Source of the DNA: an uncultured Thermoplasmata archaeon | GTDB lineage: Archaea > Thermoplasmatota > DTKX01 > GCA-020343715 | Direction: 5' to 3' | NCBI GenBank assembly: GCA_965369625.1 | Contig: CBDUQW010000002.1 | Coordinates: forward strand, 27,708 to 91,707 | Length of the DNA: 64,000 bases | Shown: piece by piece, positions 8,564-23,159 of the stretch | Position numbering within the stretch: position 1 is the first letter of the stretch | Layout: each line of letters starts with the position of its first letter | Notes under the pieces: model-generated | The model's database searches: none | Seen by the model: only the letters and a program-made list of their open reading frames with translations | What the model was told of the DNA's origin: nothing | Made by a program: the position numbers and the translations under genes

Positions 8564-11500
8564 CTAGGTGATCTCCCTCTCCAATGCTGCCAGCGGGAAC
8601 GCCGCCGTCGGTGTGATGGACAGGCCAGAGACCTGCCCCCTCGATTGTATGTCCCCTGTCATGTTGATGCCGAGTGTGAAGTTGCCAGCGCTTCCCGCAT
8701 TGGGAAGGATTATCACCAGCACGTTGTAGGCGATACGCTCCTTGACCTCGAACAGGGGCGACCTGATGAACTCCGCCGAGCCGAAGGAATCGAACCACTC
8801 GTCATCGATGTAGACGTCCTGGTTCGGTCCGGCCGCCAGGTCCCAGGCGCTGTTGTTCGTCCTGTCCCAGTAGAGGCCGATGCGGATCCTCGTCCAGTCG
8901 GCGGGGGGGTTGCCCGAGCTGTTGTAGGCCGCGAAGATCAGGCTGTTCACGTCGGCGTTCTCTCCCTCTGCCCAGAAGGTGAGCTTCATCCAGACGTAGG
9001 GCGTGGACTCCGAGGGGGCTGGCGGGCTCAGGTCCTCCATGTTGACCTTGACGGTGCCGCGGGTGCGGATGGGCACCGTGCCCGAGCTGGCGACCATGGG
9101 GGGGTTCCTGGGCAGATCGAGGCACAGGTTCGGATAGGCCGAAGCCAGGTTGGGCAAGGCTGTGGTGGTACCGATGCCACCCGCGTTGATGCTGCAACCC
9201 AGTGTCCATCCCGCTGTGCCCAGGTTCAGCGAGAACACGACCACGATGTTGAAGTCGGTGCCTGGCGTGACCCACCTCAGGGGAGCGGGTGTGAAGGTTA
9301 TCTGGTTAGCCACGAAGGAGCCCGCGTCCTCGGCATCCAGCTCGATGTCGTCGGGTCCCAGCTTTCTGTCGGTGTCGTTGTTCTGGTCCCAGTAGATACG
9401 CACGGTGACCAGGTTGCCCGCCACCGTGCCCAGCTTGTTGACCCTTATGGAGTTGATGAGCACATCCTGTCCCTCGGCGTTCAAGGTGATCTTGAACACG
9501 GGGACGTTCTGTGACGAGTCGACCAGGGGGTCGGGTATGAGGCCCTCTCCGTGGACGTAGAGCTGTCCGTTGACGGTCCTCCAGTAGGACCTGGACGGGA
9601 TGTCGCTTCCTCCGTAGCCCACAGGGGTGATCGGCAGGGTCGTGATCTGCCCGATCACCTCCGTCTGGGTCGCCAGCTCTATGCTGGTACGTATGGTCTT
9701 GCCCTCTGTCCCGTGGGCCAGGTAGGCGTACGAGTCGACCCGGACGTAACCGTAGAAGTTGGTGTCCATGGGCACCGTCCACATGGGCACGCCGGGGATG
9801 CCGTTGTCGAACAGGGCATGACCTGTGGCGTCGAAGGTGATGGTCTGGTCGTACGCCAGGGTCCCCGAGGATGAGGAGGATATCAGGATGCGGATGCCCG
9901 TGACCTCGTCCCAGGCGATGGTGCCTGCCAGGGTCACGTTGATGGAATGGAACTCGATGGGCTCGCCGTAGCACTTGTAGAGCCACCTGCGCTGGTAGGC
10001 CGTTCCGCCAGCCCTCGTGGGAAGCGTGGTGGTCCCCTCCATGTCGATGGTAACGTGGCCCGAGGAGGCCAGCGTCTTGATGGTGGGGGATGAGGGCAGC
10101 GGCACGCCGCCGGGGGTCTGGGGGTTGATGCCGTCGCCCGAGACCTCGGTGATGGCGAAGGTGTCCGCCGCAGTGTCCATCTGAACACCGACCGTGTCCC
10201 CGTTGTTGCCACGGATGTTGAAGTAGATGTACACATGGCGGTACGGCCACGCCTCGTCTATCCTCCAGCCTCCGGGCGGTGCGTTGACCTCGAGGCGTCG
10301 TGTGATGGCGTTGAAGGCCAGGGGGCCAGAGTCCAGGAAAGTACCGCCCGAGTCCTTGATGTAGCAGTCGACGTCGGTGACGTCGATGTTGCCGAGGAGG
10401 GTCAGGTTGAGCTGGTGGATGAAGACGGTCTCGCCCGTCGCCTGGTAGAGCAGCTCGATCATCTTGACGTCGTCGGTATGGGTCAGGATGCGGGTGGGAT
10501 GCCGGTTGTAGCCCCAGACCTTGAACACGCCCTTGATGGTCAGCACCGAGCTGTCGATGGGGAAGCTGCCGATGGGAAGGATCCTGATGGGGGTGGACAC
10601 ACCGACGGCGGTGATGCTGGTCTGCGACTCGATGCGGACGCCGATGGAGAAACCCTCGGTCCCGCCCGAGATGGAGACCAGGATCCAGACGTACGTGGGC
10701 TCGTCCTCGATGCAGGTGAAGAGGGGAGCCCCGATGAAGTCACGGTAGCCCCCGATGAAGTTGCCGCCCGAACCGGGCAGCTGGTAGTCGAGGACCGTGT
10801 TAAGGACCCCGTCGCGGTCCTTGTCCCAGTAGGCCCTCAGGACCACCTTGTTGTCGGCGATGGTCCCCAGTTTGCGGACGCGTATGCCGTTGACGTTGAT
10901 GGACTCGCCGTTGGACAGGAACTCCAGCTTGAGGAAGAGCTTGTTGGCATCGCCCGACTTGAGTATGGTGGGTGGGGGGACCTCGTCGGTGCCCGTCAAG
11001 CGGAGGGAGCTGAACGAGGTCGACACCGTCACCCTCACGGTGGCGGTGGCGGAGCGTCCAGTGTCGTCGGTGGCGGTGACGGTGAAGGAGTAGTCGCCGG
11101 GCAGCACGGTGGTGGCGATCTTGAGCAGGCCGGTTATGTAGACGCCGTCGCCCCTGCTGTCGACCATGGCGGTGCTGCCGGCACCGAAGGCGGTGACGGT
11201 GAAGGTGCCGTCGCCGTTGTCGGTGGAGGTGATGGTCGCGGTCACGCTGCCCGTGGTGGGCAGGTCGCCGTCGATGTCCTTGCAGACGGCGTAGAGGCGC
11301 CAGGTGGTGTAGTCGTTGTTGGGAAGCACGTCCACACCAGGCAGGGTGGAGTCGGCCCATGCGTAGGCTATGATGGGATCGTGGTCGCCGCCGGAGCTGA
11401 CGCCCCGCTGGACAACGGTGTAGAACAGAAGGCTGTTCGATGTCACGTCGACGATCTTGACGTCCAGCTTGGCCTGGGTGGAGATAGTGCCCAGGAAGTC

Positions 11501-11836
11501 CATGGTCCAGATGTCACCCGGTTCCATGACCTTCTTGCCGGCCGGCAGGCCATCCGATATCTCGAACCTTGTCGGTGTGTCATCTATGCTCACAAGGATG
11601 TAGGTCTCGCCTTCCTTGAGGGGCTCTCCTCCGGTGTGCTGCAGGTGCAGCGTGCCATCCACGGCCGAGGTCCGCTCCAGCATCGGAACGATGTCCGCCT
11701 GGATGGTGGCCTCGGGGCCAGGGATGCTGTACACAAAGGATAGGACCACCGAGAACAGGGACACGGTGATCACAAGGATGAGGAGATTCCCAACGACCTC
11801 GGAGACTGCGTCGTCTCCCGATCTTTTCCACAACAT
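8564..11836 (-). CDS. Large (1090 aa) secreted adhesin-like protein with an archaeal class III (pilin-like) signal peptide. Ig-like/Big-domain-rich, with Thr/Ser/Gly/Val-rich composition.
   Basis: N-terminus MLWKRSGDDAVSEVVGNLLILVITVSLFSVVLSFVY closely matches the archaeal Pilin_N consensus (D/E-R/D-A-V-S-E-V-I/V-G + hydrophobic helix). Long beta-rich repetitive body. A TATA-like GTATAAATAC sits at 11888-11897 upstream. Confidence 0.7.
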   Translation of the reverse strand: MLWKRSGDDAVSEVVGNLLILVITVSLFSVVLSFVYSIPGPEATIQADIVPMLERTSAVDGTLHLQHTGGEPLKEGETYILVSIDDTPTRFEISDGLPAGKKVMEPGDIWTMDFLGTISTQAKLDVKIVDVTSNSLLFYTVVQRGVSSGGDHDPIIAYAWADSTLPGVDVLPNNDYTTWRLYAVCKDIDGDLPTTGSVTATITSTDNGDGTFTVTAFGAGSTAMVDSRGDGVYITGLLKIATTVLPGDYSFTVTATDDTGRSATATVRVTVSTSFSSLRLTGTDEVPPPTILKSGDANKLFLKLEFLSNGESINVNGIRVRKLGTIADNKVVLRAYWDKDRDGVLNTVLDYQLPGSGGNFIGGYRDFIGAPLFTCIEDEPTYVWILVSISGGTEGFSIGVRIESQTSITAVGVSTPIRILPIGSFPIDSSVLTIKGVFKVWGYNRHPTRILTHTDDVKMIELLYQATGETVFIHQLNLTLLGNIDVTDVDCYIKDSGGTFLDSGPLAFNAITRRLEVNAPPGGWRIDEAWPYRHVYIYFNIRGNNGDTVGVQMDTAADTFAITEVSGDGINPQTPGGVPLPSSPTIKTLASSGHVTIDMEGTTTLPTRAGGTAYQRRWLYKCYGEPIEFHSINVTLAGTIAWDEVTGIRILISSSSSGTLAYDQTITFDATGHALFDNGIPGVPMWTVPMDTNFYGYVRVDSYAYLAHGTEGKTIRTSIELATQTEVIGQITTLPITPVGYGGSDIPSRSYWRTVNGQLYVHGEGLIPDPLVDSSQNVPVFKITLNAEGQDVLINSIRVNKLGTVAGNLVTVRIYWDQNNDTDRKLGPDDIELDAEDAGSFVANQITFTPAPLRWVTPGTDFNIVVVFSLNLGTAGWTLGCSINAGGIGTTTALPNLASAYPNLCLDLPRNPPMVASSGTVPIRTRGTVKVNMEDLSPPAPSESTPYVWMKLTFWAEGENADVNSLIFAAYNSSGNPPADWTRIRIGLYWDRTNNSAWDLAAGPNQDVYIDDEWFDSFGSAEFIRSPLFEVKERIAYNVLVIILPNAGSAGNFTLGINMTGDIQSRGQVSGLSITPTAAFPLAALEREIT

Positions 11837-12070: not shown

Positions 12071-12451
12071 TCAGTACGGTCCCCTGAGAACCTCTCTGTT
12101 GATGAACACGCCCGTCGGGGTGACGGCGAGGATGTTCTTGCCCACGCCGGCGACGTCGCCGTTGACGTCCCGGGCGACGGACTTGAGCTCGTTCGCGATA
12201 CGCCTCATCGCGGTGTCGTCGGTGGAGAGGGCCGAGATGTCCACGAGGATCATGTTACCATCGTAGACCTCTTCGATGACGGGGCCAAGGTCCTCGAAGG
12301 TGGTGACCTCCGCGACCCGCAGCTCCATGCCTCCGGCGCCGGATTCCAGCTCCAGGCCCTCGATGTCGATGTCCCCCAGGTCGATGAACTTCTCGCTTTC
12401 GGGAACAGGCCGTGGATCCGTCTTGAGCCGCTTGAGTAGACCCTTCTTCAT
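12071..12451 (-). CDS. sepF: Cell-division protein SepF (DUF552 family, FtsZ-interacting).
   Basis: 126 aa. C-terminal core ...NMILVDISALSTDD..RRIANEL...GKNILAVTPTGVFINRE matches the SepF fold signature (iLlNL...rriDfl.G...g.ifLltP..V). Confidence 0.7.
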   Translation of the reverse strand: MKKGLLKRLKTDPRPVPESEKFIDLGDIDIEGLELESGAGGMELRVAEVTTFEDLGPVIEEVYDGNMILVDISALSTDDTAMRRIANELKSVARDVNGDVAGVGKNILAVTPTGVFINREVLRGPY

Positions 12452-12604: not shown

Positions 12605-14140
12605 GTGAGGTTCGAACTTCGTGGCGCCATTCTCTTCAGCGCCGACCTGGGACCCGTCGCAGAGCACCTCGAGGGCTACGTCAGGGAGATCGAGGCGGGT
12701 CCCCTCCTAAAGGGCGTCCCAGAGGGCGAGGAGGGCCCCCGCGTCGAGGGGGCCGAGCCCAAGGGTCAGGAGCTGGCGCTGGTCATCGTCTCCGGTCGTT
12801 ACGTGCGGGCCCACGAGGCGCTGCTGAGGCTCCGCAAGGAGCTGTCCACCCGCATGGGCAAGGAGCACCGCATCGGGGCCCGCGGTGTGCGCATCGACCG
12901 CTACACCATCTCCTTCTCGGTGTCCAAGGAGCCCGCCCGGCCCGTCAAAGTGCCCTTCGCCACCTCCCTCGAGTTCCAGGGCGAGACCGCCGTTCTGACC
13001 CTCACCGACGTCTCCGAGGACTTCCTCAGCCGCAACTACGTCGACCGGCTGGTGGCCCTGGTCAGGGAGAAGGTGGACGCCCAGGGGTACGAGGGCAAGG
13101 AGGAGTTCTGGGAGCTCATCTGGACCTCGCCGCCCAGGGAGATGCCCTACCAGGAGGACCCCACCGAGGACATGGCGGGGCGGGGATGGGTCCAGCAGGG
13201 CCCGGGGAAGGGCCGGTGGTTCTTCCGGCCCCAGGCCGCCGCCGTGATCCGGACGATGGAGCGCATCGCCCTGGAGAAGGTGCTCCACCCCCTCGGCTTC
13301 CAGGAGGTCATCTCGTCCTCGCTGGTCCCCTTCGAGGTCTGGCTGAAGACGGGCCACCTCAAGGGCGTGGCCAACGAGATCTACTACTTCTCCGAGCCCG
13401 CCACCCGCAACGAGGAGGCATGGGAGGAGCTGCGCGACCTGGTGAAGGTAACCCGGGAGGTGCCCCGTGAGAAGCTGGTCGACCTCCTCGACGCGCCCAG
13501 GGCGGGCATGACCTACGCCCAGTGCCCCAACATATACTGGTCCTTCCAGAAGCGCACCCTGGCCGACGAGGACCTGCCCATCATGGTATACGACCGCACC
13601 GCCAACTCCTACCGGTACGAGTCCGGGGGGCGTCACGGCATCGAGCGGGTGGACGAGTTCCACCGCATCGAGCCCGTCTACATCGGCACCATGGACCACC
13701 TGGTGGAGCTCCGCGAGGCCCTCATCGACCTCTACAAGCGCGTGTTCAACGAGATCCTCGAGCTGGAATGGCGCATGGCCTGGGTGTCCCCCTTCTACCT
13801 CCAGCAGGCGGGGATGGCCGGGGGAGAGGAGGAGGAGGCCCCCGTCCCCGACGAGCGACGGGAGGGCACCATCGACTTCGAGGCCTACCTGCCCTACCGG
13901 GGCACCCGCGAGGAGAGCGAATGGCTGGAGTTCCAGAACCTGTCCATCCTGGGCGACATCTACACCACCGCCTTCAACATCAAGGCCCAGCGGCACGAGC
14001 TGGTCTCGGGATGCTCCGGCATAGGGCTGGAGCGGTGGACCGCCGTCTTCCTGGCCCAGAAGGGCCTCGACCCCGCCGGATGGCCCGATGGGTTCAAGGC
14101 CTTCCTGCCCGACCTCCCCAAGGGCTTCACCTTCCACTGA
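12605..14140 (+). CDS. serS: Seryl-tRNA synthetase, methanogen-type (atypical class II SerRS).
   Basis: GTG start preceded by GGAGGA. Class II motif 2 SYRYESGGRHGIERVDEFHRIE and motif 3 GCSGIGLERW. Zn-ligand candidates (AQCPN about aa 303, ERVDEF about aa 350, SGCSG about aa 468) sit at positions matching Cys306/Glu355/Cys461 of the Methanosarcina barkeri atypical SerRS. Length 511 aa and a non-canonical N-terminal domain. Confidence 0.75.
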   Translation: MRFELRGAILFSADLGPVAEHLEGYVREIEAGPLLKGVPEGEEGPRVEGAEPKGQELALVIVSGRYVRAHEALLRLRKELSTRMGKEHRIGARGVRIDRYTISFSVSKEPARPVKVPFATSLEFQGETAVLTLTDVSEDFLSRNYVDRLVALVREKVDAQGYEGKEEFWELIWTSPPREMPYQEDPTEDMAGRGWVQQGPGKGRWFFRPQAAAVIRTMERIALEKVLHPLGFQEVISSSLVPFEVWLKTGHLKGVANEIYYFSEPATRNEEAWEELRDLVKVTREVPREKLVDLLDAPRAGMTYAQCPNIYWSFQKRTLADEDLPIMVYDRTANSYRYESGGRHGIERVDEFHRIEPVYIGTMDHLVELREALIDLYKRVFNEILELEWRMAWVSPFYLQQAGMAGGEEEEAPVPDERREGTIDFEAYLPYRGTREESEWLEFQNLSILGDIYTTAFNIKAQRHELVSGCSGIGLERWTAVFLAQKGLDPAGWPDGFKAFLPDLPKGFTFH

Positions 14141-14195: not shown

Positions 14196-14207
14196 TAATA
14201 TAAAGGG
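14196..14207 (+). promoter_or_regulatory. TATA box (ctaatataaagg) plus a GGAGGG RBS upstream of rps3ae.
   Basis: AT-rich element about 40-50 nt upstream of the GTG start at 14246. aaggaggg lies 10 nt before the start. Confidence 0.4.
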
Positions 14208-14245
14208 GTCCCTCTTTACGGGAAACACCCCCAAGGAGGGCTCAA

Positions 14246-15235
14246 GTGGCCAAGAAATCAGCCCGCGCTGAGGCGAGGAAGGTAAAGGACCGCTGGAAGT
14301 CCAAGGTCTGGTACAACCTGTACGCCCCCGAGATATTCGGGGCGAGCCAGATCGGCGAGACCCTGGCGGACACCCCCGAGAAGCTGAACGGTCGCGTCAC
14401 CCAGATCACCCTTCAGGACATAACCGGTGACTTCTCGCAGATGCACGTCAAGCTGAACTTCCAGATCAACCGCGTGGTGGGACTGGACGCCCACACCGCC
14501 TTCGTCGGCCACGACCTGACCTCCGATTACATCCGCCGCCTGACGCGCAGGAAGCACTCCAAGATGGACGGCATCTACGATGTCACCACCCTCGACGGCT
14601 ACCGCGTGCGCATCAAGCCCATGGCCATCACCGAGCGGCGCATCAAGTCCTCCCAGCAGGAAGCCATCCGTGCCCAGATGATGCAGGTGGTCAACGACAG
14701 CGCCAGTCGCGCAACCCTCCCCGAGGTCATCAGGGCGATGATCTCCGGAGAGATGTCCAAGTCCATCTTCCGCAAGTGTAAGCCCATCTACCCCATCAAG
14801 CGGGTGGAGATCCGTCGCAGCCAGGTGATCGGTCGCGAGTTCGTCCCCGACGGCCCCGTCCGCGAGGGTGGCGACGGCTACGTGCTTGGAGGTCCCGAAC
14901 CAGAACCCGAGCCGGAAGGCGAGGAGGCTCCCGCCGAGGGCGAGGTACCCGTCGAGGCTCCCGCCGAGGAGACCCCTGCAGAGGAGGCTCCCGCGGAGGT
15001 TCCCGCCCCCGCCGAGTCGGAGGAGGAGTCCGAGGTGGACCCCGAGACGGTGGCCGCCATCATAGCCTCCTTCGGGGACATCCCGGGCATCGGCCCGTCC
15101 AAGGCCCAGGCCCTCTTCGACAGCGGTTACACCTCCGTCGAGGAGATCAAGGCCCTCTCCGCGGAGGACCTGGCCAAGGTCGAGGGCATCTCCGAGGCCC
15201 TGGCCAAGAGCGTCCACGAGGCCCTCAACGAGTAG
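14246..15235 (+). CDS. rps3ae: 30S ribosomal protein S3Ae (eS1) fused to a C-terminal acidic Pro/Glu/Ala-rich linker and a helix-hairpin-helix (HhH) domain.
   Basis: N-terminus MAKKSARAEARKVKDRWKSKVWYNLYAPEIFG... is the canonical S3Ae start. It is about 210 aa, followed by EPEPEPEGEEAPAEGEVPVEAPAEETPAEEAPAEVPAPAESEEESE and then IASFGDIPGIGPSKAQALFDSGYTSVEEIKALSAEDLAKVEGISEALAK (two GIG-type HhH motifs). Confidence 0.8.
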   Translation: MAKKSARAEARKVKDRWKSKVWYNLYAPEIFGASQIGETLADTPEKLNGRVTQITLQDITGDFSQMHVKLNFQINRVVGLDAHTAFVGHDLTSDYIRRLTRRKHSKMDGIYDVTTLDGYRVRIKPMAITERRIKSSQQEAIRAQMMQVVNDSASRATLPEVIRAMISGEMSKSIFRKCKPIYPIKRVEIRRSQVIGREFVPDGPVREGGDGYVLGGPEPEPEPEGEEAPAEGEVPVEAPAEETPAEEAPAEVPAPAESEEESEVDPETVAAIIASFGDIPGIGPSKAQALFDSGYTSVEEIKALSAEDLAKVEGISEALAKSVHEALNE

Positions 15236-15268: not shown

Positions 15269-16522
15269 TCAGATGAGCTTGCCCCAGGTGTGCTCGGTGT
15301 TGCACCGGGTCCATCCCAGGTCCTCGAGGTCGGTCACGTCGGAGCCCACCTTGAGCCGGAAGGTGTTGACCTGGGTCGGGTACTCGTTGTAGTGGAGGAT
15401 GGACCTGGCGATGCCGAAGCGCTTGGGCTGTTCGAAGCGCCAGTAGGCCCTGGAATACGCCTCCAGCTCCAGGTCGATGGTGGCCTCGGCGCTCTCGCCC
15501 CGGACGGTGAACACGGGGTAGTCCTCGTCGGTGAGGACGTGCTTGATCTTGGGCTTCTTGAACTTGTACAGCCGCTGGGCGGTCTCGTCCCAGAACTGCA
15601 GGCTGCGGTTGAGGAAGATGTCGCCGAAGTCCCATCGGCTCCTCGGCCGCTCGTCCTTCCGGTGCAGCTGGGGTCCGACGTGGGGGAAGAAGTAGTCCAG
15701 GTAGTCTCCCCTCTGGGTGTGCATCACCGTCCAGTACCAGGGTATGGCGGGGGCGTTGACGCGGACCTTCTGGAAGTACGCGGTGGAGCCCGCGGCGTCC
15801 ACCTCCTCTCCGTCCACCTTGTAGGTCCCCTCCACCTTCATCCCGTAGATGCGCAGGATGTTGTACGAGTACTTCTTGGAGTAGGCGTTGGCCCGGTAGC
15901 GGTGGTCGGACATGAAGGGGGTCCAGTCCGTCATGTCCAGGTGGAAGCCGTGGCCGTCCTCGGGCATGTCGATGTCGAGCCTGTACCTGCCGGGCCTTCC
16001 GGAGAACCGGAGGTCCTTGGGGGACTGGGGGTCCAAGAGGCCATCAGCGCCTCGCTTTTCGACCCTGAACCAGTTCGGCTCGAGGATGACGGGGTCCTTC
16101 ATCCTCCTTCCATCGTACCACCAGGCGGCGGTCATCCCGTTGAACTTGAGGTCGATGTCATCCCCCTCGGCCTTTCGCTCTATCTTTCCCTCGGGGGTCC
16201 AGTCAAAGTAGTCCACCTTTATCCAGTCGGTGTACTTGGTGGACCACAGGATCATCAGCTGCCGCGTCCGTCGCGGGTTGTCCGGGTCGGGGAAGAAGAA
16301 GAGCCACCACCACCACCACCAGGTGAGCCCCTGGTGGATGTTCGAGAGGTCCAGGTCCCACATCAGGGCCTCGGCCTCCGGGCCCAGGACCTCCTTGGCG
16401 TCGGTGGTGTGGCCCCTGGGCCTCTCCACAGTCTGGTGACCGACCGGCTCCTCCATCACGGGTGAATCCCCCGTTCGATACATAAAGGTGCCGTGGGGTC
16501 CCCACCCAGCAAGATGGTTCAC
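15269..16522 (-). CDS. Conserved hypothetical cytoplasmic protein, Trp/Tyr-rich, containing a hexa-Trp run. The start could be M1 (16522), M14 (16483) or M23 (16456).
   Basis: Coherent non-shadow composition over 417 aa. A TATA-like cttataaagg at 16548-16557 is appropriately placed upstream on the minus strand. Confidence 0.55.
   Translation of the reverse strand: MNHLAGWGPHGTFMYRTGDSPVMEEPVGHQTVERPRGHTTDAKEVLGPEAEALMWDLDLSNIHQGLTWWWWWWLFFFPDPDNPRRTRQLMILWSTKYTDWIKVDYFDWTPEGKIERKAEGDDIDLKFNGMTAAWWYDGRRMKDPVILEPNWFRVEKRGADGLLDPQSPKDLRFSGRPGRYRLDIDMPEDGHGFHLDMTDWTPFMSDHRYRANAYSKKYSYNILRIYGMKVEGTYKVDGEEVDAAGSTAYFQKVRVNAPAIPWYWTVMHTQRGDYLDYFFPHVGPQLHRKDERPRSRWDFGDIFLNRSLQFWDETAQRLYKFKKPKIKHVLTDEDYPVFTVRGESAEATIDLELEAYSRAYWRFEQPKRFGIARSILHYNEYPTQVNTFRLKVGSDVTDLEDLGWTRCNTEHTWGKLI
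16303..16320 (-). repeat. (TGG)6 trinucleotide repeat encoding WWWWWW. It is followed by CTC(TTC)3 encoding LFFF within the hypothetical gene.
   Basis: Plus strand reads ccaccaccaccaccacca immediately after gaagaagaagag. Confidence 0.85.
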
Positions 16523-16762: not shown

Positions 16763-19700
16763 TCATCGATGCTTCAGCATGTGCCCTATCAGGAAACCCA
16801 ACACGAGCAGTGCAAGGGCGGTCAAGAGCAGTATGATGATGACCTTGGCGTCCTCCGTGGGTCCCCAGACGGGCTGTGCCTCAGGTTTCCCCCTCACCAA
16901 TAGGTCCGTCTCCGAACGGGCGGAGGCGGTCCCGTCCGTAACGATGGCCGAGATCCGGTGCGCGCCCGCAGCAAGGTCGTTGACCGTGAACTCCACATCA
17001 CGGTCCGTCTCGATGGTGAGCAGGATGCCCGAGATGTTCGAGATGAGGGTGAGAGTCACCATCTCGCCGTAAATGAAGTCGGGGTCCTCGACGGAGATCC
17101 TGAAGGTCACCGGCGCCCCCTCGTCGAAGGCGCTACCGTCGCGAGGTGCCAGGAAAATCGGGGGCAGGGGTGGCTCCCCAATCTTCGTTACATGTACGGT
17201 GATGTCCTCCGATGCCGAACCCCCACGGCCGTCCGTTCCAGAAAGGGTGACATGGTGGGTGCCCAGGTCCCCCGCATCCGCTGAGAGCCTCAACGAACCG
17301 TTCCCAAGGAGGCTTGCGCCGTCCCAGTCCGACTCGATGGATAGATGGACCCGGTCCCCGTCCTTGTCAATGGTGAGGACATCGAGGACCAGCTCCTCTC
17401 CCACCTGCATCTCGATCTCTGCCGGGAGGTGGTAATCGCCGACGGCCAGTAGGTCCGGGTTGTGGTTCCTATCGATGACCCGTATGGGTAGGAGTCCCAC
17501 CGTGGTCTCGTACCCGTCCGATACCCTGAACTCGATCTGGTGGGGTTCCTCGTAACTTGGGTAGTACAGACGTATCATCAGGTCCGTGATGTACAATACC
17601 GCAGGGTCCCCGGAGCTCAGTTTGAGGTCGTGCTTGGCGTCGTCCACGTCGTAGATATAGGGACCCAGGTCCACTTCCTTCAACATCCTCACCGATATGT
17701 TGAACTGTGGGATCTCCATGATGCTCGGCGGTGAATTCAGGTGCGTGAACTTGAAGGGTTCCGACCATGGACCGCCACGTTTGGGTGGACGCGAATAGAG
17801 CGTCGCCACCCGCCAGTAGAGCTCACCCTTGCGGGTCCCCGAGACATTGGCGTAGGGATCTGGAACATCCGAGGTCAACGTGACGAGGTCGAAGTCAGGG
17901 TCGAGGGCCAGCTGGAACCTGTAGCCCCATACATCCCCGTTGGTGGTCGACCCGTGGACCGGCGACCATGTGAAAAGGGGAACGTCCTTGCTCTCGTGCC
18001 CGTTCCACGGGGTCTGCAGGGCGGTCATGCTCATGGGGACGTACCGGTGGGCGCGTCCCTTGGATGTCATCCTTCCCGTCCCCTCCCCGCCCGTTGGTCC
18101 CAGGGCGGCGGACCTCCAGCAGAACCCACCATCGCCTCCGGTGGCGCCCAGGTGATTGTTGGCGTGGATGACCGGCTCAATGACCACCAGGCGCATCGAG
18201 GCATCTCCTCCGTCTCCAACCCCCTGCTCGATGACACCGGTCCCGCCACCGTGGCTGATCCAGAGGCCATCCTCGATGATACATCCACCACCACCGCCGG
18301 AGTAGGAGCCGCCGCCCCCACCTCCCCTCCATTCGTTCCTAGCGGCCATCATGTGAGAGCGTCCAGCCCTTCCTCCGGGGCCACCTCCACCAGCGTGGAC
18401 GTTGACATCCACGAGGAAGAACGTTCCCTGGGTCGATGTAACCTCCAGTCGGGCATCTCCTCCCGAGGCCACGTCACCCTCCACCGTGCCACCAGACCCC
18501 CCGTTCACGGTGAGCGGGTCTGATGCGGACGGGATCCATCCTGCCCCTCCACCTCCGGAGTGCCCACCCCCTCCAGCTCCACTGGGACCTGTGGATGTCC
18601 CTCCATCACCTGCCCTGCCCCCTTGGCCCGCGGTCACGTTCAGGATGCCATCGGAAAGATGGACGGAATGCGACACGATGGTCGCGGTGGCGTCGCCCCC
18701 TGAACCCACGTGACCTTCGACCGTTCCTCCGTTTGCTCCCCCGTTCCGAGATTCATGACTGCCACCTCCGCCTCCCGAGTAACCTCCACCACCGGCACCG
18801 CCGAGACCCGCCGTGTCACCACCGTCGCCAGCATCACCACCGTCACCCGCCTGGATGGCCACCTCCGAGGCCTGCATGGAAACCTCGACCGCAAGGATGT
18901 ACAGGGTCGAATCGCCGCCGACGCCAACCCATCCCGAGACCTGTCCACCTGGACCCGCGGGATGCTCGGGGTCCGAGGCCCCCGTGCCTCCCGAGTAACC
19001 GCCACCTCCGGCGCCCAGGCCGGCGTTGGACTTCACGGAGCCACCGTCGCCCGCATCACCTCCGTCACCGCCCACGACATGGACCACAGAGCCCTGGACA
19101 TCGACCTTGTTCGTGGTCATACCGATGAAGGCGTCCCCTCCGGAACCAACCCTGTCCGAGACAGACCCACCCTGGGTATAACCCCCGCCGAGGACTTGGG
19201 CGGTGCCCTCGGAGGTCACGCCGTCGGGGGCGTCCCCTCCCACTCCCGCCTGGACGAGGACGGTGGAGTTCAATATGGCGAGGGAGGCGAAGTCCAGTGT
19301 GGTCTTCAGGACGAAGCGGGCATCGCCCCCGGCGTACCTACGACCGTCCAGGTCGTCGAGCGTCACCGGGATATCCGGGCCCATTCCATCGCCCGCCGAC
19401 AGGACCACGGACGCGTTCTCGATCAATATCTCCCGGCTGGCCCTCACGTTCATCTCCACGCTCACTCCCTGACCGTCCCAACGGTTCGAGCCGTCAGGTC
19501 CCTCGATGATGATCGAGGATCCATCGGTGACGCGCATGTGCCTGCACGTCCCGTTGATGCCGATGACCTCCCCTGCCGTCCAAGGAGAGATGACCAGGTC
19601 GCCCCCTGTGAGATCGACGGTGGCCAGTCCTTCCATGGTCATTTGGGATACCGACAGCGTCGTCCCCTCGGGTATCACCAGGTGACCAAAGGTCGTTATC

Positions 19701-19891
19701 TTGACGGAGCTCCACGACTCCGTCCCCGAGACGACGTACTCCTGGTTCACGTAGAGGCTGGCATCGGTGGTGGGAGGGCGATCGGCACCAAGGTCGGAGG
19801 GCGTCACGGGTGGGTCTATTAAGGGTACGACGGTCACCATGAGCATTGTGAGGGCCACGACGAGCGGGACCAAGGGGCACGGACGTTTCAT
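16763..19891 (-). CDS. Paralog B' of the giant Gly/Asp-repeat surface protein family (1042 aa). Domain order: signal peptide, beta-helix-like N-domain, about 370 aa of Gly-rich repeats, Fn3-like domain, Ig/cadherin-like domains, then a C-terminal TM anchor (VIIILLLTALALLVLGFLIGHMLKHR).
   Basis: ORF composition. N-terminal signal MKRPCPLVPLVVALTMLMVTVVPL. Repeats of the type AGDGGDAGDGG...GGAGGGGYSGGGGG...VGSGGDA. FTWSPVHGST...ELYWRVATLY is Fn3-like. The start ATG overlaps the stop of the upstream paralog (ATGA at 19888-19891). Confidence 0.8.
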   Translation of the reverse strand: MKRPCPLVPLVVALTMLMVTVVPLIDPPVTPSDLGADRPPTTDASLYVNQEYVVSGTESWSSVKITTFGHLVIPEGTTLSVSQMTMEGLATVDLTGGDLVISPWTAGEVIGINGTCRHMRVTDGSSIIIEGPDGSNRWDGQGVSVEMNVRASREILIENASVVLSAGDGMGPDIPVTLDDLDGRRYAGGDARFVLKTTLDFASLAILNSTVLVQAGVGGDAPDGVTSEGTAQVLGGGYTQGGSVSDRVGSGGDAFIGMTTNKVDVQGSVVHVVGGDGGDAGDGGSVKSNAGLGAGGGGYSGGTGASDPEHPAGPGGQVSGWVGVGGDSTLYILAVEVSMQASEVAIQAGDGGDAGDGGDTAGLGGAGGGGYSGGGGGSHESRNGGANGGTVEGHVGSGGDATATIVSHSVHLSDGILNVTAGQGGRAGDGGTSTGPSGAGGGGHSGGGGAGWIPSASDPLTVNGGSGGTVEGDVASGGDARLEVTSTQGTFFLVDVNVHAGGGGPGGRAGRSHMMAARNEWRGGGGGGSYSGGGGGCIIEDGLWISHGGGTGVIEQGVGDGGDASMRLVVIEPVIHANNHLGATGGDGGFCWRSAALGPTGGEGTGRMTSKGRAHRYVPMSMTALQTPWNGHESKDVPLFTWSPVHGSTTNGDVWGYRFQLALDPDFDLVTLTSDVPDPYANVSGTRKGELYWRVATLYSRPPKRGGPWSEPFKFTHLNSPPSIMEIPQFNISVRMLKEVDLGPYIYDVDDAKHDLKLSSGDPAVLYITDLMIRLYYPSYEEPHQIEFRVSDGYETTVGLLPIRVIDRNHNPDLLAVGDYHLPAEIEMQVGEELVLDVLTIDKDGDRVHLSIESDWDGASLLGNGSLRLSADAGDLGTHHVTLSGTDGRGGSASEDITVHVTKIGEPPLPPIFLAPRDGSAFDEGAPVTFRISVEDPDFIYGEMVTLTLISNISGILLTIETDRDVEFTVNDLAAGAHRISAIVTDGTASARSETDLLVRGKPEAQPVWGPTEDAKVIIILLLTALALLVLGFLIGHMLKHR

Positions 19892-22800
19892 CGCCTGACC
19901 TCCTCCAGATAGGGATCCTCGACCCCACTCGAGCCTGCCAGGTAACCTATCGTGACCACAATGATGAAGATGAAGGCGAACAACACATAGAGCCAGGTGT
20001 GGTCCTGCCCCGGCGGGGGCGATGATTCCTCCGCCTCATCCACCGTGAGATGGAGGGTGACGCTCTTCTCGTACGTCCCATCGTCGACGGTGATCACTAT
20101 CCTGTGGTCTCCCGGGGAGAGCCGGTCCGTGGCGAGGGATGCGAACGACTGGGTTGACGTTTGACCCAGCGTCCCCGATGTGTCCGACCAGAAGGTGACG
20201 TTGAGCCACGCTCCCGAAGGGATGTCCGGGTCCGATACCCTCACCGAGAAGACCACCAGATCCCCCTCCCTGAACACCGACCGGTCTGCAGGGCTGAAGA
20301 CCTCTGGCGGTTCCGGCGGTCGGTTCGACCTCACGACGACGATCCAGACGACCACTGAGGCGGTACCTCCCCTTCCATCATCCACGATGACCTTCAGTCT
20401 GTTCGAACCCAGGTCATAACTGTCAGGATGGAGCACGATGACCCCGGCGGGGGTGATCTCGACCCCTATCATGTCCGATGTGAGCGTGTATGTCAGGGGA
20501 TCGTCGTCCGGGTCGTCGGCCTCCACCTTCAACCACTCCTCCTCGAGCTCGGCCATCGTCCATTGATAGGGGGCCAGCCTCTCACCCACGCTCACTATCA
20601 CGGGTGCCTCGTTCGCGTCGATCACCTCGACGATGACATGCCCCATAGTGGTGCTGACCCCGTCGGACACGCTATAGTGGACACGGTGGGGCGCCTCCCA
20701 CCATTCGTAGTAGAATATGACGAACAGTCCCGTGATCGATTCCACCCCGGGATGGTCGATCTCGACCACCAAATCGTCTATGAAGGTGTCCCTGTCGTGA
20801 AAGTAGTATCCCAAGTAGATGGATTTGGGCTGGTCCTCTATCACCGTCACAGTAGGGTAGTCATCGATCTCCGGTGGCTCGTTGTAGAACCTGAAGGAAC
20901 TGAACCTGACCTCTGGCCCATTGACCTGCGGGGGGCCTCTGTAGACCGCGATGACCTTCCAGTAGTACGTCCCCATCTGCAGGTCAGGGATGGAAAGGTC
21001 CGGTCTGACGGACGTGGTCTCCGTCACGATTTCGGTGAACGGGATGTCACGGGCCATCTTGAACAGGTAGTGGACCACATCACCGTCCTCCGTGGACCTG
21101 TGGACGGGCATCCACTCGAAGCTGGGCACGAAGTGTAGTTCCAACCTGTCCCCAGGGCTCCAGAGGATGACCTCGCTCTTGGGGATGTACTCCCACCTCG
21201 TTCCGTCCCTGGTGCTCCGCACCCGGGCTTTTCCCTGGGGGTCCTCGAGGTTGAGCGAGCGAGTGGAGCCACAATCTCCCCAGAGCACGTAGATCATGGT
21301 GTTCCTATGCAAGGAAAGCCTCTCGCTCTGGATGTCCAGCGAGGCGTTGCCGCCATCCCCCACCTTCCCGAGGACGTCCGATGCACTACCGCCTGAACCG
21401 TAGGTCTGACCCTCATGGCCTGCACCACCTCCCCCGCCGGAGGAGTGGCCACCGGCCCCACCACCACAGGCCGGTCGCTGGTTCTCATCGATCCTCGCGT
21501 TCCCATAGCCTCCCTCGTCACCTCCCGACCCTCCCACGACGTTGAACACGGAGGTCGTCGAGACGAGACGGGGTGACTCCAGGAGGAGACTTGCATCGCC
21601 ACCGCTCCCCACCGACCCTCTCAGAGCGCCTCCTGCGCCACCGTCGGTGCCAGGCGTTCCCCCGGATGAGTTCCCGTCGGCGCCACCACCCCCTCCGGTG
21701 TAACCACCGCCTCCTCCTCCTGCGAGGGCACCCGCATCGCCACCATCACCGCCTTCACCCCCGTTCCCTGCAGTGGCCAGGACCCTTGACGTTCCTATAT
21801 CCATGGTGTCTGCGCCCGTCAAGGTGGCGCTGACATCCCCGCCCCTCCCCACAGACCCCGTGACCGTGCCACCGTCGCCACCGGGCATGAGCCCGTGATT
21901 GCCACCTCCGCCGCCCGAGTAGCCGCCGCCGCCGGCCCCGCCACCTCCATCCGTGAGCGAGCCTCCGTCGCCAGCATCTCCACCGTCGCCTCCCAGCATC
22001 TCGATGCGGGCGCCTTCCAGTTCCACCCATCCCCCTACGAGGTTGAAACTCACGTCACCTCCCTTGCCCACGCCTTCTGACACGGAACCCCCTGGGCCCG
22101 GGGGGTCCTGGGCGTTGGAGGCGCTGGCACCGTCCCCACCGGAGTAGCCCCCGCCACCGCATCCGGCGTCGGTCGTCCACTTGGTGCTCCCCCCGTCACC
22201 AGCGTCCCCGCCGTTCCCAGCCGTCATGTTCAACGTGGTGTCCGTGATCATGATGTGGTCGGAAGAAAGGACGCCGTCCACGTCGCCTCCCGAGCCCACG
22301 TTGCCAGATACGTCGCCGCCCCGGGTGTAGCCACCACCAATCCCCCCACGGTCACCATCCCCTCCGCGAATAGGGGATTGGCCATCGGGAGCCCGGCCGC
22401 CGTTCCCCGCGGTCAGGGCGATCTTGCAGTTGGAGAGGATGAGCATGTCGTTGTCCTTCACGAGGGTAACGCTCATCGTTACATCCCCTCCCGCGAAGGA
22501 GTATCCGTCCAGGTCCCCATCGGTCAATGACTCCGGGGGAGAGAACCCATTCCCCGCGGTCAAGGAGATGGTGGAATCCATCCACATCATCGTTCGGGTG
22601 GAGGTGAGGTTCAGACCCACCGAGCAGCCCCTGCTGGTGGGGACGTCGTACCCTCCGTCGGGACCCCGGATGTTCACCAGGCTGCCCTTGGTGATTTCGA
22701 ACCAGCTGCAATGCCCCGAGATCCCCACGAACTCCCTGTACGTTCGGGGTTCGATCTCGAGCACACCCCCCTGCAGGTGCATCTGGGCGTTGTCGAGGAG

Positions 22801-23046
22801 GGTGACGCTGTCGGCCACCAGGTGACCGCCATCGCCGATGATGAGCGAGCCCGTGGACTCCACCACCACATTGGACCACACCTCGTAGTGGTCCACGGAG
22901 CAGTTCGAGTCGATGACCATGGTTTCACCAGAACGGGTCCCCGGCGAGGCCGATACCAAGGAGGGATGGTCCACCTCCAGCATCCCCAGCGGACAGGCTA
23001 GGAGGAACATCGAGACAACAAGCGCAAACGAAACCCCCGCGCGCAT
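19888..23046 (-). CDS. Paralog A' of the giant Gly/Asp-repeat surface protein family (about 1052 aa from ATG 23046).
   Basis: The 6-frame ORF extends to 23115, but the signal peptide MRAGVSFALVVSMFLLACPLG begins at ATG 23044-23046. Same architecture as above. The Fn3-like segment (MGTYYWKVIAVYRGPPQVNGPE) groups it with the 26326..29478 paralog. A TATA-like attattat at about 23066-23078 sits in the 113-nt gap upstream. Confidence 0.8.
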   Translation of the reverse strand: MRAGVSFALVVSMFLLACPLGMLEVDHPSLVSASPGTRSGETMVIDSNCSVDHYEVWSNVVVESTGSLIIGDGGHLVADSVTLLDNAQMHLQGGVLEIEPRTYREFVGISGHCSWFEITKGSLVNIRGPDGGYDVPTSRGCSVGLNLTSTRTMMWMDSTISLTAGNGFSPPESLTDGDLDGYSFAGGDVTMSVTLVKDNDMLILSNCKIALTAGNGGRAPDGQSPIRGGDGDRGGIGGGYTRGGDVSGNVGSGGDVDGVLSSDHIMITDTTLNMTAGNGGDAGDGGSTKWTTDAGCGGGGYSGGDGASASNAQDPPGPGGSVSEGVGKGGDVSFNLVGGWVELEGARIEMLGGDGGDAGDGGSLTDGGGGAGGGGYSGGGGGNHGLMPGGDGGTVTGSVGRGGDVSATLTGADTMDIGTSRVLATAGNGGEGGDGGDAGALAGGGGGGYTGGGGGADGNSSGGTPGTDGGAGGALRGSVGSGGDASLLLESPRLVSTTSVFNVVGGSGGDEGGYGNARIDENQRPACGGGAGGHSSGGGGGAGHEGQTYGSGGSASDVLGKVGDGGNASLDIQSERLSLHRNTMIYVLWGDCGSTRSLNLEDPQGKARVRSTRDGTRWEYIPKSEVILWSPGDRLELHFVPSFEWMPVHRSTEDGDVVHYLFKMARDIPFTEIVTETTSVRPDLSIPDLQMGTYYWKVIAVYRGPPQVNGPEVRFSSFRFYNEPPEIDDYPTVTVIEDQPKSIYLGYYFHDRDTFIDDLVVEIDHPGVESITGLFVIFYYEWWEAPHRVHYSVSDGVSTTMGHVIVEVIDANEAPVIVSVGERLAPYQWTMAELEEEWLKVEADDPDDDPLTYTLTSDMIGVEITPAGVIVLHPDSYDLGSNRLKVIVDDGRGGTASVVVWIVVVRSNRPPEPPEVFSPADRSVFREGDLVVFSVRVSDPDIPSGAWLNVTFWSDTSGTLGQTSTQSFASLATDRLSPGDHRIVITVDDGTYEKSVTLHLTVDEAEESSPPPGQDHTWLYVLFAFIFIIVVTIGYLAGSSGVEDPYLEEVRR

Positions 23047-23159
23047 GGGAACTACTAAGGACGCATGCTGATAATAATCCCATCGATGCGTGACACCCGC
23101 GTCGTCCGAGGCCAAGGTCCAGGACCGACGAGGGAAAGGATGGGGTCATAATCCCAGGC

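What the first reader, a model, noticed from the sequence alone, without database searches (positions are those of the whole stretch)
14246..15235. Ribosomal protein S3Ae fused to an acidic linker and a C-terminal HhH2 domain
Canonical S3Ae is about 200 aa. This gene continues in frame for about 120 extra aa: a Pro/Glu/Ala-rich acidic spacer, then IPGIGPSKAQALFDSGYTSVEEIKALSAEDLAKVEGISEALAK, a tandem helix-hairpin-helix nucleic-acid-binding module. A ribosomal protein carrying an extra nucleic-acid-binding tail may have extraribosomal or rRNA/mRNA-tethering functions. If it is an assembly frameshift, that should be ruled out.
Basis: partly seen in the sequence, partly recalled or inferred. Interest (0 to 1): 0.5.

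Follow-up and report, generated by a model that had tools for sequence, protein, structure and literature searches.

The report
Ribosomal protein eS1 with tethered HhH domain
This is a real, evolutionarily conserved archaeal gene in which small-subunit ribosomal protein eS1 (S3Ae) carries a floppy acidic spacer and a small helix-hairpin-helix domain, the same add-on that salt-loving archaea attach to ribosomal protein eL32, so these ribosomes carry an extra 'fishing-line' domain near the mRNA exit whose job is still unknown.

Summary
Window 14246-15235 (+) is one 329-aa ORF with three parts: a canonical eS1/S3Ae core (aa 1-197), a disordered Pro/Glu/Ala-rich acidic linker (aa 198-262), and a five-helix (HhH)2 domain (aa 263-329).

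It is not a frameshift or assembly artefact. The identical protein is encoded on two other independent assemblies, and a 74%-identical orthologue sits in a closed 2.28 Mb chromosome. About 90 distinct homologues (74 protein clusters and 20 species-representative genomes, all Thermoplasmatota-type) share the architecture. Core and HhH distances co-vary (Mantel r = 0.94), and the linker is hypervariable (9-88 aa).

The nearest sequence relative of the tail is the N-terminal (HhH)2 of haloarchaeal ribosomal protein eL32 (E = 1.9e-19, 45% identity). The same subtype also decorates RNA polymerase subunit A″ in many Thermoplasmatota.

Function is inferred, not shown. eS1 lines the Shine-Dalgarno/mRNA-exit chamber, so the tail most likely acts as a tethered, sequence-independent and salt-insensitive nucleic-acid backbone binder. 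A protein-docking or dimerisation role is a serious rival, because the closest folds (Hef, XPF-ERCC1) also dimerise.

I found no literature description. I rate it a new variant of a known kind, of moderate interest.

The parts
14196..14204 (+). Putative archaeal TATA-like box (TAATATAAA), about 42 nt upstream of the start codon
   Evidence: Read directly from the sequence. This is an inference. The sigma-70 promoter scan does not apply to archaea and found nothing.
14235..14239 (+). Shine-Dalgarno-like GGAGG, 6 nt before the GTG start
   Evidence: Sequence.
14246..15235 (+). Complete CDS of eS1(S3Ae)-linker-(HhH)2, 329 aa plus stop codon
   Evidence: ORF list. A 100% identical protein, P0001, is present in the NCBI, Logan and ENA sources.
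14246..14836 (+). eS1/S3Ae core, aa 1-197, basic (pI 10.3)
   Evidence: PF01015 E 2.2e-71. NCBIfam equivalog NF003142 scores 258.7 bits against a cutoff of 198. Colinear with solved archaeal eS1 chains 6skf and 6sw9. AF2 pLDDT is above 90.
14837..15031 (+). Disordered Pro/Glu/Ala-rich acidic linker, aa 198-262 (22 acidic, 1 basic residue)
   Evidence: AF2 pLDDT is below 50 for aa 204-262. Composition. Length (9-88 aa) and sequence are hypervariable among orthologues.
15032..15232 (+). (HhH)2 domain, aa 263-329, five helices, net charge about -9
15080..15094 (+). First hairpin, IPGIG (aa 279-283), the canonical h-x-G-h-G phosphate-binding hairpin
   Evidence: G281 and G283 are at least 90% conserved, and A287 is invariant, in alignment A1.
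15179..15193 (+). Second hairpin, VEGIS (aa 312-316), semi-canonical (G-h-S, as in RadA 'EGISE')
   Evidence: G314 is invariant in A1. The third position varies among G, S, T and D across orthologues.

Best explanation
Identity (near certain): this is the organism's genuine eS1/S3Ae ribosomal-protein gene. In a set of Thermoplasmatota lineages it has been fused since an early date to a flexible, extended, strongly acidic Pro/Glu/Ala spacer and a canonical (HhH)2 domain.

Mechanism (inferred): the basic core assembles into the 30S platform, where eS1 forms one wall of the Shine-Dalgarno/mRNA-exit chamber. The acidic linker is repelled by rRNA and projects into solvent. It holds the (HhH)2 domain on a leash of roughly 6-20 nm around the mRNA exit. 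There the domain acts as a sequence-independent nucleic-acid backbone clamp through its G-h-G hairpins. That mode of binding is largely insensitive to salt and does not need a basic surface. The likely effect is to capture or retain the 5' part of mRNAs (or duplex or structured segments, or nearby DNA) at the ribosome. The same module appears to play the same role on haloarchaeal eL32 and on Thermoplasmatota RNA polymerase subunit A″.
For: Shown:
- One ORF with S3Ae plus HHH_5.
- The tail starts exactly where solved archaeal eS1 chains end.
- AF2 gives an ordered core, a disordered linker and an ordered five-helix domain.
- The fold is a canonical (HhH)2.
- The identical protein occurs on two further assemblies, and an orthologue lies in a closed chromosome.
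- 74 of 126 retrieved proteins and 20 of 80 species-representative genome loci carry the tail.
- Conservation follows core > HhH >> linker: 84/76/58% among close homologues and 56/39/22% among distant ones.
- Core and HhH distances co-vary, with Mantel r 0.94 and p 0.001.
- Hairpin 1 (G-h-G, then A) is nearly invariant.
- The nearest sequence relative is the eL32 N-terminal HhH2 of haloarchaea, at E 1.9e-19 and 45% identity.
- The same subtype is fused to RpoA″ in 72 of 120 listed clusters and to eL32 in three copies.
- Loci that carry the fusion have more acidic neighbouring genes (p 0.004).

From the literature:
- eS1 borders the SD-duplex chamber and mRNA exit in archaea (PMC9932298; PMC11698992).
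- HhH motifs fused to polymerases confer salt-tolerant DNA binding (PMC8313265).
Against: - No binding data exist for this domain or for its eL32 counterpart.
- The domain is acidic (13 D/E against 4 K/R), which is unusual for a nucleic-acid binder outside salt-in organisms.
- The window's own proteome is only mildly acidic, with median pI about 4.9 from noisy gene calls.
- One fusion-bearing clade (L003, L004, L006, L008) has neutral neighbouring genes.
- (HhH)2 domains classically bind duplex DNA, not single-stranded mRNA.
- The second hairpin is degenerate, and its G-h-S/D-E form resembles the non-DNA-binding NusA acidic repeats.
- The closest folds (Hef, FAAP24, ERCC1-XPF) are also obligate dimerisation modules.
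- The fusion has been lost several times, with at least 7 state changes on the core tree, so it is dispensable.
Confidence: 0.42

Rival explanations
1. Protein-protein docking or dimerisation module. The tethered (HhH)2 pairs with another (HhH)2, either on a second ribosome, on the HhH-decorated RNA polymerase A″ subunit, or on one of the proteins made only of HhH2 repeats. Alternatively it binds a factor, as NusA-AR1/AR2 bind lambda N and the RNAP alpha-CTD. It would then organise polysomes or ribosome dimers, or couple transcription to translation.
Against: No partner has been identified. Whether eS1-HhH and RpoA″-HhH occur in the same genomes could not be tested. The NusA C-terminal repeat model scores below its cutoff (22.6 against 48.15). 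Hairpin 1 keeps the canonical phosphate-binding G-h-G in nearly all orthologues, which a pure protein-binding module would not need.
Confidence: 0.3
2. Cis-acting rRNA or assembly helper. The HhH2 binds the organism's own 16S rRNA or pre-rRNA, for example a lineage-specific helix on the platform, and so stabilises the subunit or aids early 30S assembly, in which eS1 is an early binder.
For: eS1 is an early-assembling small-subunit protein in yeast (PMC9932298). HhH-like motifs occur in the rRNA-binding protein uS13, and one hit gives a weak Ribosomal_S13 match. The tight co-evolution of core and HhH fits a partner that also evolves vertically.
Against: Linker length ranges from 9 to 88 aa and its sequence is not conserved. 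That is hard to reconcile with a fixed docking site. The homologous eL32 HhH domain did not appear among the structural matches even though its sequence is in the PDB entries. This suggests it is unmodelled and therefore mobile on solved haloarchaeal ribosomes (inference). The acidic linker should be repelled by rRNA.
Confidence: 0.1
3. Passive acidic appendage. The tail mainly adds negative charge and solubility (an entropic bristle, or a halophilic adaptation) to a very basic protein. The HhH fold would be only a stable cap with no specific ligand.
For: The core has pI 10.3 and the whole protein pI 5.1. Many Thermoplasmatota eS1 proteins have 37-158 aa low-complexity tails with no HhH domain. 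The fusion is weakly associated with acidic neighbouring genes.
Against: The HhH domain is conserved far better than the linker (76% against 58%, and 39% against 22%), with invariant hairpin glycines. That points to selection on a specific fold and surface, not just on charge. In some clades the domain is neutral or basic (L029 +2, L004 -1).
Confidence: 0.1
4. Artefact: a sequencing or assembly frameshift, or a chimera, that merged an S3Ae gene with a separate HhH gene.
For: None was found. The short 'stand-alone' HhH ORFs in databases (P0127, P0129) at first looked like separate genes.
Against: The identical 329-aa protein occurs on two other independent ENA assemblies. The architecture is intact in a closed 2.28 Mb chromosome and in about 90 orthologues from the JGI, ENA, NCBI and Logan sources. 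The reading frame is continuous, with GC3 of 0.90-0.97 on both sides of the linker. P0127 and P0129 start at base 1-4 of their contigs and are followed by the same convergent neighbour gene, so they are truncated copies of the fused gene.
Confidence: 0.01

Closest known systems
Haloarchaeal ribosomal protein eL32 (L32e) with an N-terminal (HhH)2 domain (NCBIfam NF009401/PRK12766; PDB 1JJ2 chain X, 1S72 chain Y, 9L94 chain Q)
   Same: It is a ribosomal protein carrying one (HhH)2 domain of the same sequence subtype. The profile E-value is 1.9e-19 to 3e-17, the best of all PDB sequences. Identity is 45% over 47 aa. It is also the best non-S3Ae NCBIfam hit. The domain is separated from the ribosomal core by a long spacer. 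It did not appear among the structural matches, which suggests it is mobile in the solved ribosomes (inference).
   Different: The host protein differs (eL32, large subunit, against eS1, small subunit). The terminus is the opposite one (N against C). The lineage differs (Halobacteria against Thermoplasmatota). No L32e core is present here (37.4 bits against a cutoff of 239). Its function is likewise unknown, and I found no paper discussing it.
Canonical archaeal eS1/S3Ae (T. kodakarensis 6SKF, P. abyssi 6SW9, about 200 aa)
   Same: The core is a full-length, equivalog-level match and is colinear over residues 1-196. The expected position is the 30S platform, forming a wall of the SD/mRNA-exit chamber (PMC9932298).
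   Different: Canonical proteins end at about residue 200. This one adds 132 aa.
XPF/Hef/ERCC1/FAAP24-type C-terminal (HhH)2 domains
   Different: Sequence identity is only 18-23%. Those domains sit on nucleases or helicases and work as obligate dimers on branched DNA. No nuclease or helicase domain is present here.
RadA/Rad51 N-terminal domain and PolX, UvrC and LigA HhH domains
   Same: They show similar hairpin sequences ('PGVGP..A', 'EGISE'), profile E-values of 4e-14 to 1e-7 and Foldseek rmsd of 1.2-1.4 Å. These are DNA-backbone binders.
   Different: None of the catalytic cores is present, and all the NCBIfam scores fall far below their cutoffs.
NusA acidic repeats AR1/AR2
   Different: The score is below the family cutoff (22.6 against 48.15). 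NusA repeats lack the canonical G-h-G hairpin that this tail keeps.
Thermoplasmatota RNA polymerase subunit A″ with 1-3 N-terminal (HhH)2 domains
   Same: The HhH subtype is the same (single-domain scores of 55-72 bits against the eS1-tail profile) and so is the phylum.
   Different: The host is RNA polymerase, the copies are tandem, and they sit at the N-terminus. I found no description of this in the literature either.
Bacterial bS6 (with its RimK-added oligo-Glu tail) and bS1: positional and functional analogues, recalled from memory
   Same: bS6 and bS18 occupy the place of eS1 on the bacterial platform (PMC9932298). From my own knowledge, bS6 carries an acidic C-terminal tail, and bS1 is an acidic, flexibly attached mRNA-catching protein at the same face.
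   Different: There is no homology. This is an analogy only and was not tested here.

Membership tests
eS1 / S3Ae ribosomal protein family | Match to the family models above the curated thresholds, over the full length | tested here: met
   PF01015 scores 239.8 bits against a cutoff of 29.3, covering profile positions 3-188 of 191. NCBIfam equivalog NF003142 scores 258.7 bits against a cutoff of 198.
eS1 / S3Ae ribosomal protein family | Colinear with experimentally solved ribosome-bound eS1 chains | tested here: met
   6skf_Ad aligns 1-196 to 1-196 at E 3.2e-53. 6sw9_A, 4v6u_AA and others also align.
eS1 / S3Ae ribosomal protein family | It is the sole eS1 copy and is incorporated in the 30S subunit | not testable with these tools
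   Only 64 kb of the genome is available. No second S3Ae gene lies in the window, and no assembly contributed two loci among the 80 best genome hits. That is weak support only. Proteomics of ribosomes would be needed.
(HhH)2 domain superfamily (Pfam HHH_5) | Match above the gathering score | tested here: met
   PF14520 scores 51.7 bits against a cutoff of 27, at aa 278-328.
(HhH)2 domain superfamily (Pfam HHH_5) | Two helix-hairpin-helix motifs with h-x-G-h-G hairpins joined by a connector helix (five helices in all) | tested here: met
(HhH)2 domain superfamily (Pfam HHH_5) | Non-sequence-specific nucleic-acid binding | not testable with these tools
   This needs EMSA or NMR. The domain is net acidic.
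Haloarchaeal HhH-eL32 (NF009401 / PRK12766) | N-terminal (HhH)2 of this subtype | tested here: met
   Profile E 1.9e-19 to 9l94_Q and 2.9e-17 to 1jj2_X. Identity is 45%.
Haloarchaeal HhH-eL32 (NF009401 / PRK12766) | L32e core domain and a whole-protein score above the cutoff | tested here: not met
   The score is 37.4 bits against a cutoff of 239, and only profile positions 10-59 are matched. There is no PF01655 hit. It works like this family but is not a member.
NusA C-terminal acidic repeat (TIGR01954) | Score above the cutoff | tested here: not met
   22.6 bits against a cutoff of 48.15.
RadA/Rad51 recombinase | ATPase core following the N-terminal HhH domain | tested here: not met
   TIGR02236 scores 27 bits against a cutoff of 361, and only the HhH part matches.

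The most novel reading that the evidence does not exclude
In Thermoplasmatota both the ribosome (eS1) and RNA polymerase (subunit A″) carry flexibly tethered (HhH)2 domains of one subtype. The closest folds of that subtype (Hef, XPF-ERCC1, FANCM-FAAP24) pair with each other. The tails could therefore heterodimerise, or co-bind the same nucleic acid, and physically couple the transcribing polymerase to the lead ribosome, or ribosomes to each other. That would be a built-in coupling device that replaces a NusG/NusA-type bridge.
Probability: 0.07. Interest if true: 0.85.

Novelty: new variant of a known kind. Interest (0 to 1): 0.45.

Why it matters
Lineage-specific additions to ribosomal proteins are one of the few handles on how ribosomes are customised. 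This one places an extra folded domain on a long leash beside the mRNA exit/Shine-Dalgarno chamber of the archaeal small subunit.

It has been kept under purifying selection across many uncultured Thermoplasmatota. It is homologous to the never-explained N-terminal domain of haloarchaeal eL32. That domain is encoded in the very protein present in the classic H. marismortui 50S crystal structures, yet it seems never to have been discussed.

The same module also sits on RNA polymerase A″ in this phylum. Together these observations suggest that archaeal gene-expression machines are equipped with salt-tolerant HhH 'grapples'.

The function could be tested with simple biochemistry (EMSA, SEC-MALS), or by deleting the eL32 domain in genetically tractable Haloferax. 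The outcome could bear on mRNA recruitment or on transcription-translation coupling in archaea.

Tried and rejected
- **Frameshift or merged-ORF artefact:** rejected.
- **Stand-alone HhH genes as the source of the tail:** the 66-67 aa database entries annotated 'NusA' and 'UvrC' are contig-edge fragments of the fused gene.
- **Word-indexed homology search with the 70-aa tail profile:** it gave only 7 short hits and was uninformative. I replaced it with the exhaustive representative search.
- **'Salt-in, acidic proteome explains the fusion':** only partly supported. The Mann-Whitney p is 0.004 on 19 against 40 loci, with 3-8 crude gene calls each. One fused clade has neutral neighbouring genes, and the window itself is only mildly acidic. 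I do not use it as a main argument.
- **Single-origin test:** the first attempt with Biopython NJ timed out. My own NJ on p-distances gave at least 7 state changes across about 6 fused clades. The tree is crude, has no support values, and includes one truncated entry (P0124).
- **AFDB fold search for taxonomy:** the library was unavailable.
- **Rfam scan and promoter/terminator scans:** nothing relevant.
- **Literature:** 'S3Ae' with 'helix-hairpin-helix', 'eS1' with 'helix-hairpin-helix' and 'archaea', and 'L32e' with 'helix-hairpin-helix' each returned 0 papers.

Full report

Yes. Window 14246..15235 (+) is a single uninterrupted ORF of 329 aa with a GTG start. GGAGG lies 6 nt upstream of the start, and a TATA-like TAATATAAA lies about 42 nt upstream.

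Pfam places Ribosomal_S3Ae at aa 10-195 (E 2.2e-71) and HHH_5 at aa 278-328 (E 1.3e-13). Both are above their gathering scores. The NCBIfam equivalog for S3Ae scores 258.7 bits against a cutoff of 198. Solved archaeal eS1 chains are 184-222 aa long and align with query residues 1-196/198. The extra 132 residues therefore begin exactly where canonical eS1 ends.

The extension has two parts:
- a 65-aa linker with 20 Glu, 13 Pro and 9 Ala, 22 acidic residues against 1 basic, and pI 4.05;

Third-position GC is 0.90 in the core and 0.97 in the HhH part, so both halves share one frame and one codon bias.

**2. Is it an artefact?**

No.
- The identical 329-aa protein is encoded on two further independent ENA assemblies (L001, L002).
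- A 74%-identical orthologue with the same architecture lies in a closed 2,277,065-bp 'Thermoplasmata archaeon' chromosome, CP070808.1.
- Of 126 proteins retrieved, 74 carry the HhH tail.
- Of 80 loci from species-representative genomes, nearly all labelled Thermoplasmata, Thermoplasmatota or Methanomassiliicoccales, 20 carry it.
- Short 'stand-alone' HhH proteins in the databases (P0127, P0129; annotated NusA and UvrC) start at base 1-4 of their contigs. They are followed by the same convergent gene of about 400 aa as in the window. They are truncated copies of the fused gene.

**3. Anatomy and evolution**

AlphaFold2 gives three regions:
- a confident eS1 core (pLDDT above 90);
- a disordered segment at aa 204-262 (pLDDT below 50);
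- a confident five-helix domain at aa 266-328 (pLDDT about 85-89).

In alignments of divergent orthologues the first hairpin (I-P-G-I-G...A) is nearly invariant. The second (V-E-G-I-S) keeps its first glycine, but its third position varies.

Conservation is graded:

| Set of homologues | Core identity | HhH identity | Linker identity |
|---|---|---|---|
| Close | 84% | 76% | 58% |
| Distant | 56% | 39% | 22% |

Linker length ranges from 9 to 88 aa. Its composition switches between Pro/Glu/Ala-rich, poly-Glu, Ala/Pro-rich and Lys-rich in different clades.

On a crude NJ tree of 205 eS1 cores, the 94 fused sequences fall into about six clades with at least 7 state changes. Within the fused set, core and HhH distances co-vary strongly (Spearman 0.84; Mantel r 0.94, p 0.001). 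That is the pattern expected of an old fusion inherited vertically with repeated loss, not of recent shuffling.

Most other Thermoplasmatota eS1 proteins also have low-complexity C-terminal tails of 37-158 aa without an HhH domain.

**4. What is the tail related to?**

A profile of the tail was searched against all PDB sequences. It hits first the N-terminal domain of haloarchaeal ribosomal protein eL32 (9L94 chain Q, E 1.9e-19; H. marismortui 1JJ2, 1S72 and 3CMA, about 3e-17). PolX (4e-14), Pfu Rad51 (5e-13), Topo V (2e-11), UvrC, LigA and NusA (about 5e-7) come well behind. Pairwise identity to the H. marismortui domain is 45% over 47 aa. NCBIfam's 'L32e' model PRK12766 is also the best non-S3Ae hit, and only its HhH part matches.

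These eL32 chains are absent from the structure-based hit lists. That suggests the domain is not modelled in the solved ribosomes, that is, it is mobile. This is an inference, and it agrees with my recollection that the N-terminal ~95 residues of L32e are disordered in the 50S crystals.

An exhaustive HMMER search of 1.84 billion representative proteins found 5,428 proteins with this subtype. They include eL32 with three copies (P0141) and RNA polymerase subunit A″ with three N-terminal copies (P0143). A follow-up search showed that 72 of 120 listed RpoA″ clusters carry 1-3 such domains. Those clusters are named Thermoplasmatota or Thermoplasmata where they are named at all. The fused forms are 600-796 aa, against about 415-480 aa for the canonical form.

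The window itself contains no other HhH ORF.

**5. How it most likely works**

Shown: the architecture, its conservation, the disorder of the linker, and the fold.

From the literature:
- Archaeal eS1, with uS11 and h26, forms one side of the chamber that holds the SD:anti-SD duplex at the mRNA exit. It contacts eS26 and uS11 (PMC9932298; PMC11698992).
- HhH motifs bind the nucleic-acid backbone through hairpin amides and confer salt-tolerant binding when they are fused to polymerases (PMC8313265).

Inferred: the basic core (pI 10.3) anchors in the platform. The acidic, Pro-rich linker is repelled by rRNA and acts as an extended leash. The (HhH)2 then samples a shell of some 6-20 nm around the mRNA exit and grips nucleic-acid backbone without sequence specificity. 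It would help retain the 5' part of mRNAs, structured segments, or DNA.

Supporting hints:
- the canonical first hairpin is retained;
- some non-acidic clades have a Lys-rich segment next to the domain;
- the same module is used on RNA polymerase;
- there is a modest association with acidic neighbouring genes (p 0.004).

I put about 0.4 on this mechanism, and about 0.97 on the identity statement that this is a genuine, conserved eS1-(HhH)2 fusion.

**6. Rivals**

(a) Protein docking or dimerisation, about 0.3. The best folds are all dimerising HhH2 modules, the domain is acidic like the NusA repeats, and potential partners with the same domain exist in the phylum. No partner is known, however, and co-occurrence could not be tested.

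(b) Cis-acting rRNA or assembly helper, about 0.1. The hypervariable linker and the apparent mobility of the eL32 homologue argue against it.

(c) Passive acidic appendage, about 0.1. The much stronger conservation of the HhH domain than of the linker, and the invariant glycines, argue against it.

(d) Artefact, about 0.01. Refuted as described in section 2.

**7. Comparison with what is known, and novelty**

The core is a bona fide member of the eS1/S3Ae family. The tail is a bona fide (HhH)2 domain. The protein is not a member of the eL32, RadA, UvrC or NusA families, because all of those models score far below their cutoffs and match only the HhH part.

The closest known system is the HhH-eL32 of haloarchaea. 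It uses the same module and the same 'tethered to a ribosomal protein' logic. It differs in host protein, subunit, terminus and lineage.

Database entries for the fused proteins are annotated simply as '30S ribosomal protein S3ae'. Full-text searches for S3Ae, eS1 or L32e together with helix-hairpin-helix returned nothing. I therefore rate it a new variant of a known kind.

It is of moderate interest on its own. It becomes more interesting as part of a wider, apparently undescribed pattern of HhH decoration of ribosomes and RNA polymerase in Thermoplasmatota and Halobacteria.

**8. Limits**

- No experimental data exist for any of these tails.
- The taxonomy comes only from record titles.
- The tree is a p-distance NJ without support values.
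- The proteome-acidity test uses crude ORF calls from 8-kb loci.
- Two things could not be checked with the available scans: whether a second, canonical eS1 exists in the same genome, and whether eS1-HhH and RpoA″-HhH co-occur in one genome.

Noticed in passing
related proteins P0143, P0288-P0357 (not in the window): RNA polymerase subunit A″ in many Thermoplasmatota carries 1-3 N-terminal (HhH)2 domains of the same subtype as the eS1 tail. This holds for 72 of 120 listed clusters, at 600-796 aa against about 415-480 aa for the canonical form. I found no literature on it.
   Followed up: partly
related protein P0141 (not in the window): An eL32 with three tandem (HhH)2 domains ahead of the L32e core (418 aa). 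It is an expanded version of the haloarchaeal HhH-eL32.
   Followed up: no
window 15269-16522 (-): A 417-aa ORF with no Pfam hit, convergent with the eS1-HhH gene. It carries a striking Trp/Phe-rich stretch (WWWWWWLFFF) near the N-terminus. A gene in the same position and orientation (368-415 aa) follows eS1-HhH in L001, L002, L083, L084 and the P0127 contig, so it is a conserved neighbour of unknown function.
   Followed up: partly
window 16763-29478 (-): Four tandem genes of about 1050 aa (1042, 1075, 1058 and 1050 aa). The one I read (16763-19891) has a signal-peptide-like N-terminus, long Gly/Asp-rich repeats (GGDGGDAGDGG...) and a Big_9 Ig domain. The four look like a paralogous surface-protein array.
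   Followed up: no
window 8564-11836 (-): A 1090-aa protein with an archaeal type IV pilin N-terminal domain (PF07790), so probably a very large pilin-like or adhesin surface protein.
   Followed up: no
window 12605-14140 (+) and 12071-12451 (-): Immediately upstream of eS1-HhH lies a methanogen-type seryl-tRNA synthetase (tRNA_bind_4 plus a class II core). Beyond it lies a SepF cell-division homologue on the opposite strand. This upstream neighbourhood is not conserved in the closed-genome orthologue (L084).
   Followed up: partly
L010 (PWHE01000011.1): A contig labelled 'Mollicutes bacterium isolate T1Sed10_136R1' encodes an archaeal eS1-HhH with a poly-Glu linker, so the MAG is mis-binned or mislabelled. 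Its 'T1Sed10' label and the 'GSL' label of L066 suggest that this poly-Glu clade comes from hypersaline sites. That reading rests on my interpretation of the sample names only.
   Followed up: no
P0127 and P0129 (JGI annotations): Contig-edge fragments of eS1-HhH are annotated by the source as 'transcription termination factor NusA' and 'excinuclease UvrABC nuclease subunit'. These are annotation errors caused by the HhH domain.
   Followed up: yes
L005-L081 (HhH-negative loci): Almost all Thermoplasmatota eS1 proteins retrieved have C-terminal low-complexity tails of 37-158 aa (Pro/Ala-rich, Glu-rich or Lys/Glu-rich) even where there is no HhH domain. Tail elongation of eS1 is therefore a phylum-wide trait.
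   Followed up: partly
P0154 (UCH88459.1, Thermoplasmata archaeon CP070629.1): A 344-aa 'hypothetical protein' with two (HhH)2 domains of the same subtype is encoded in a closed genome whose own eS1 (L018) lacks the HhH tail. It may be a free-standing counterpart of the tail.
   Followed up: no
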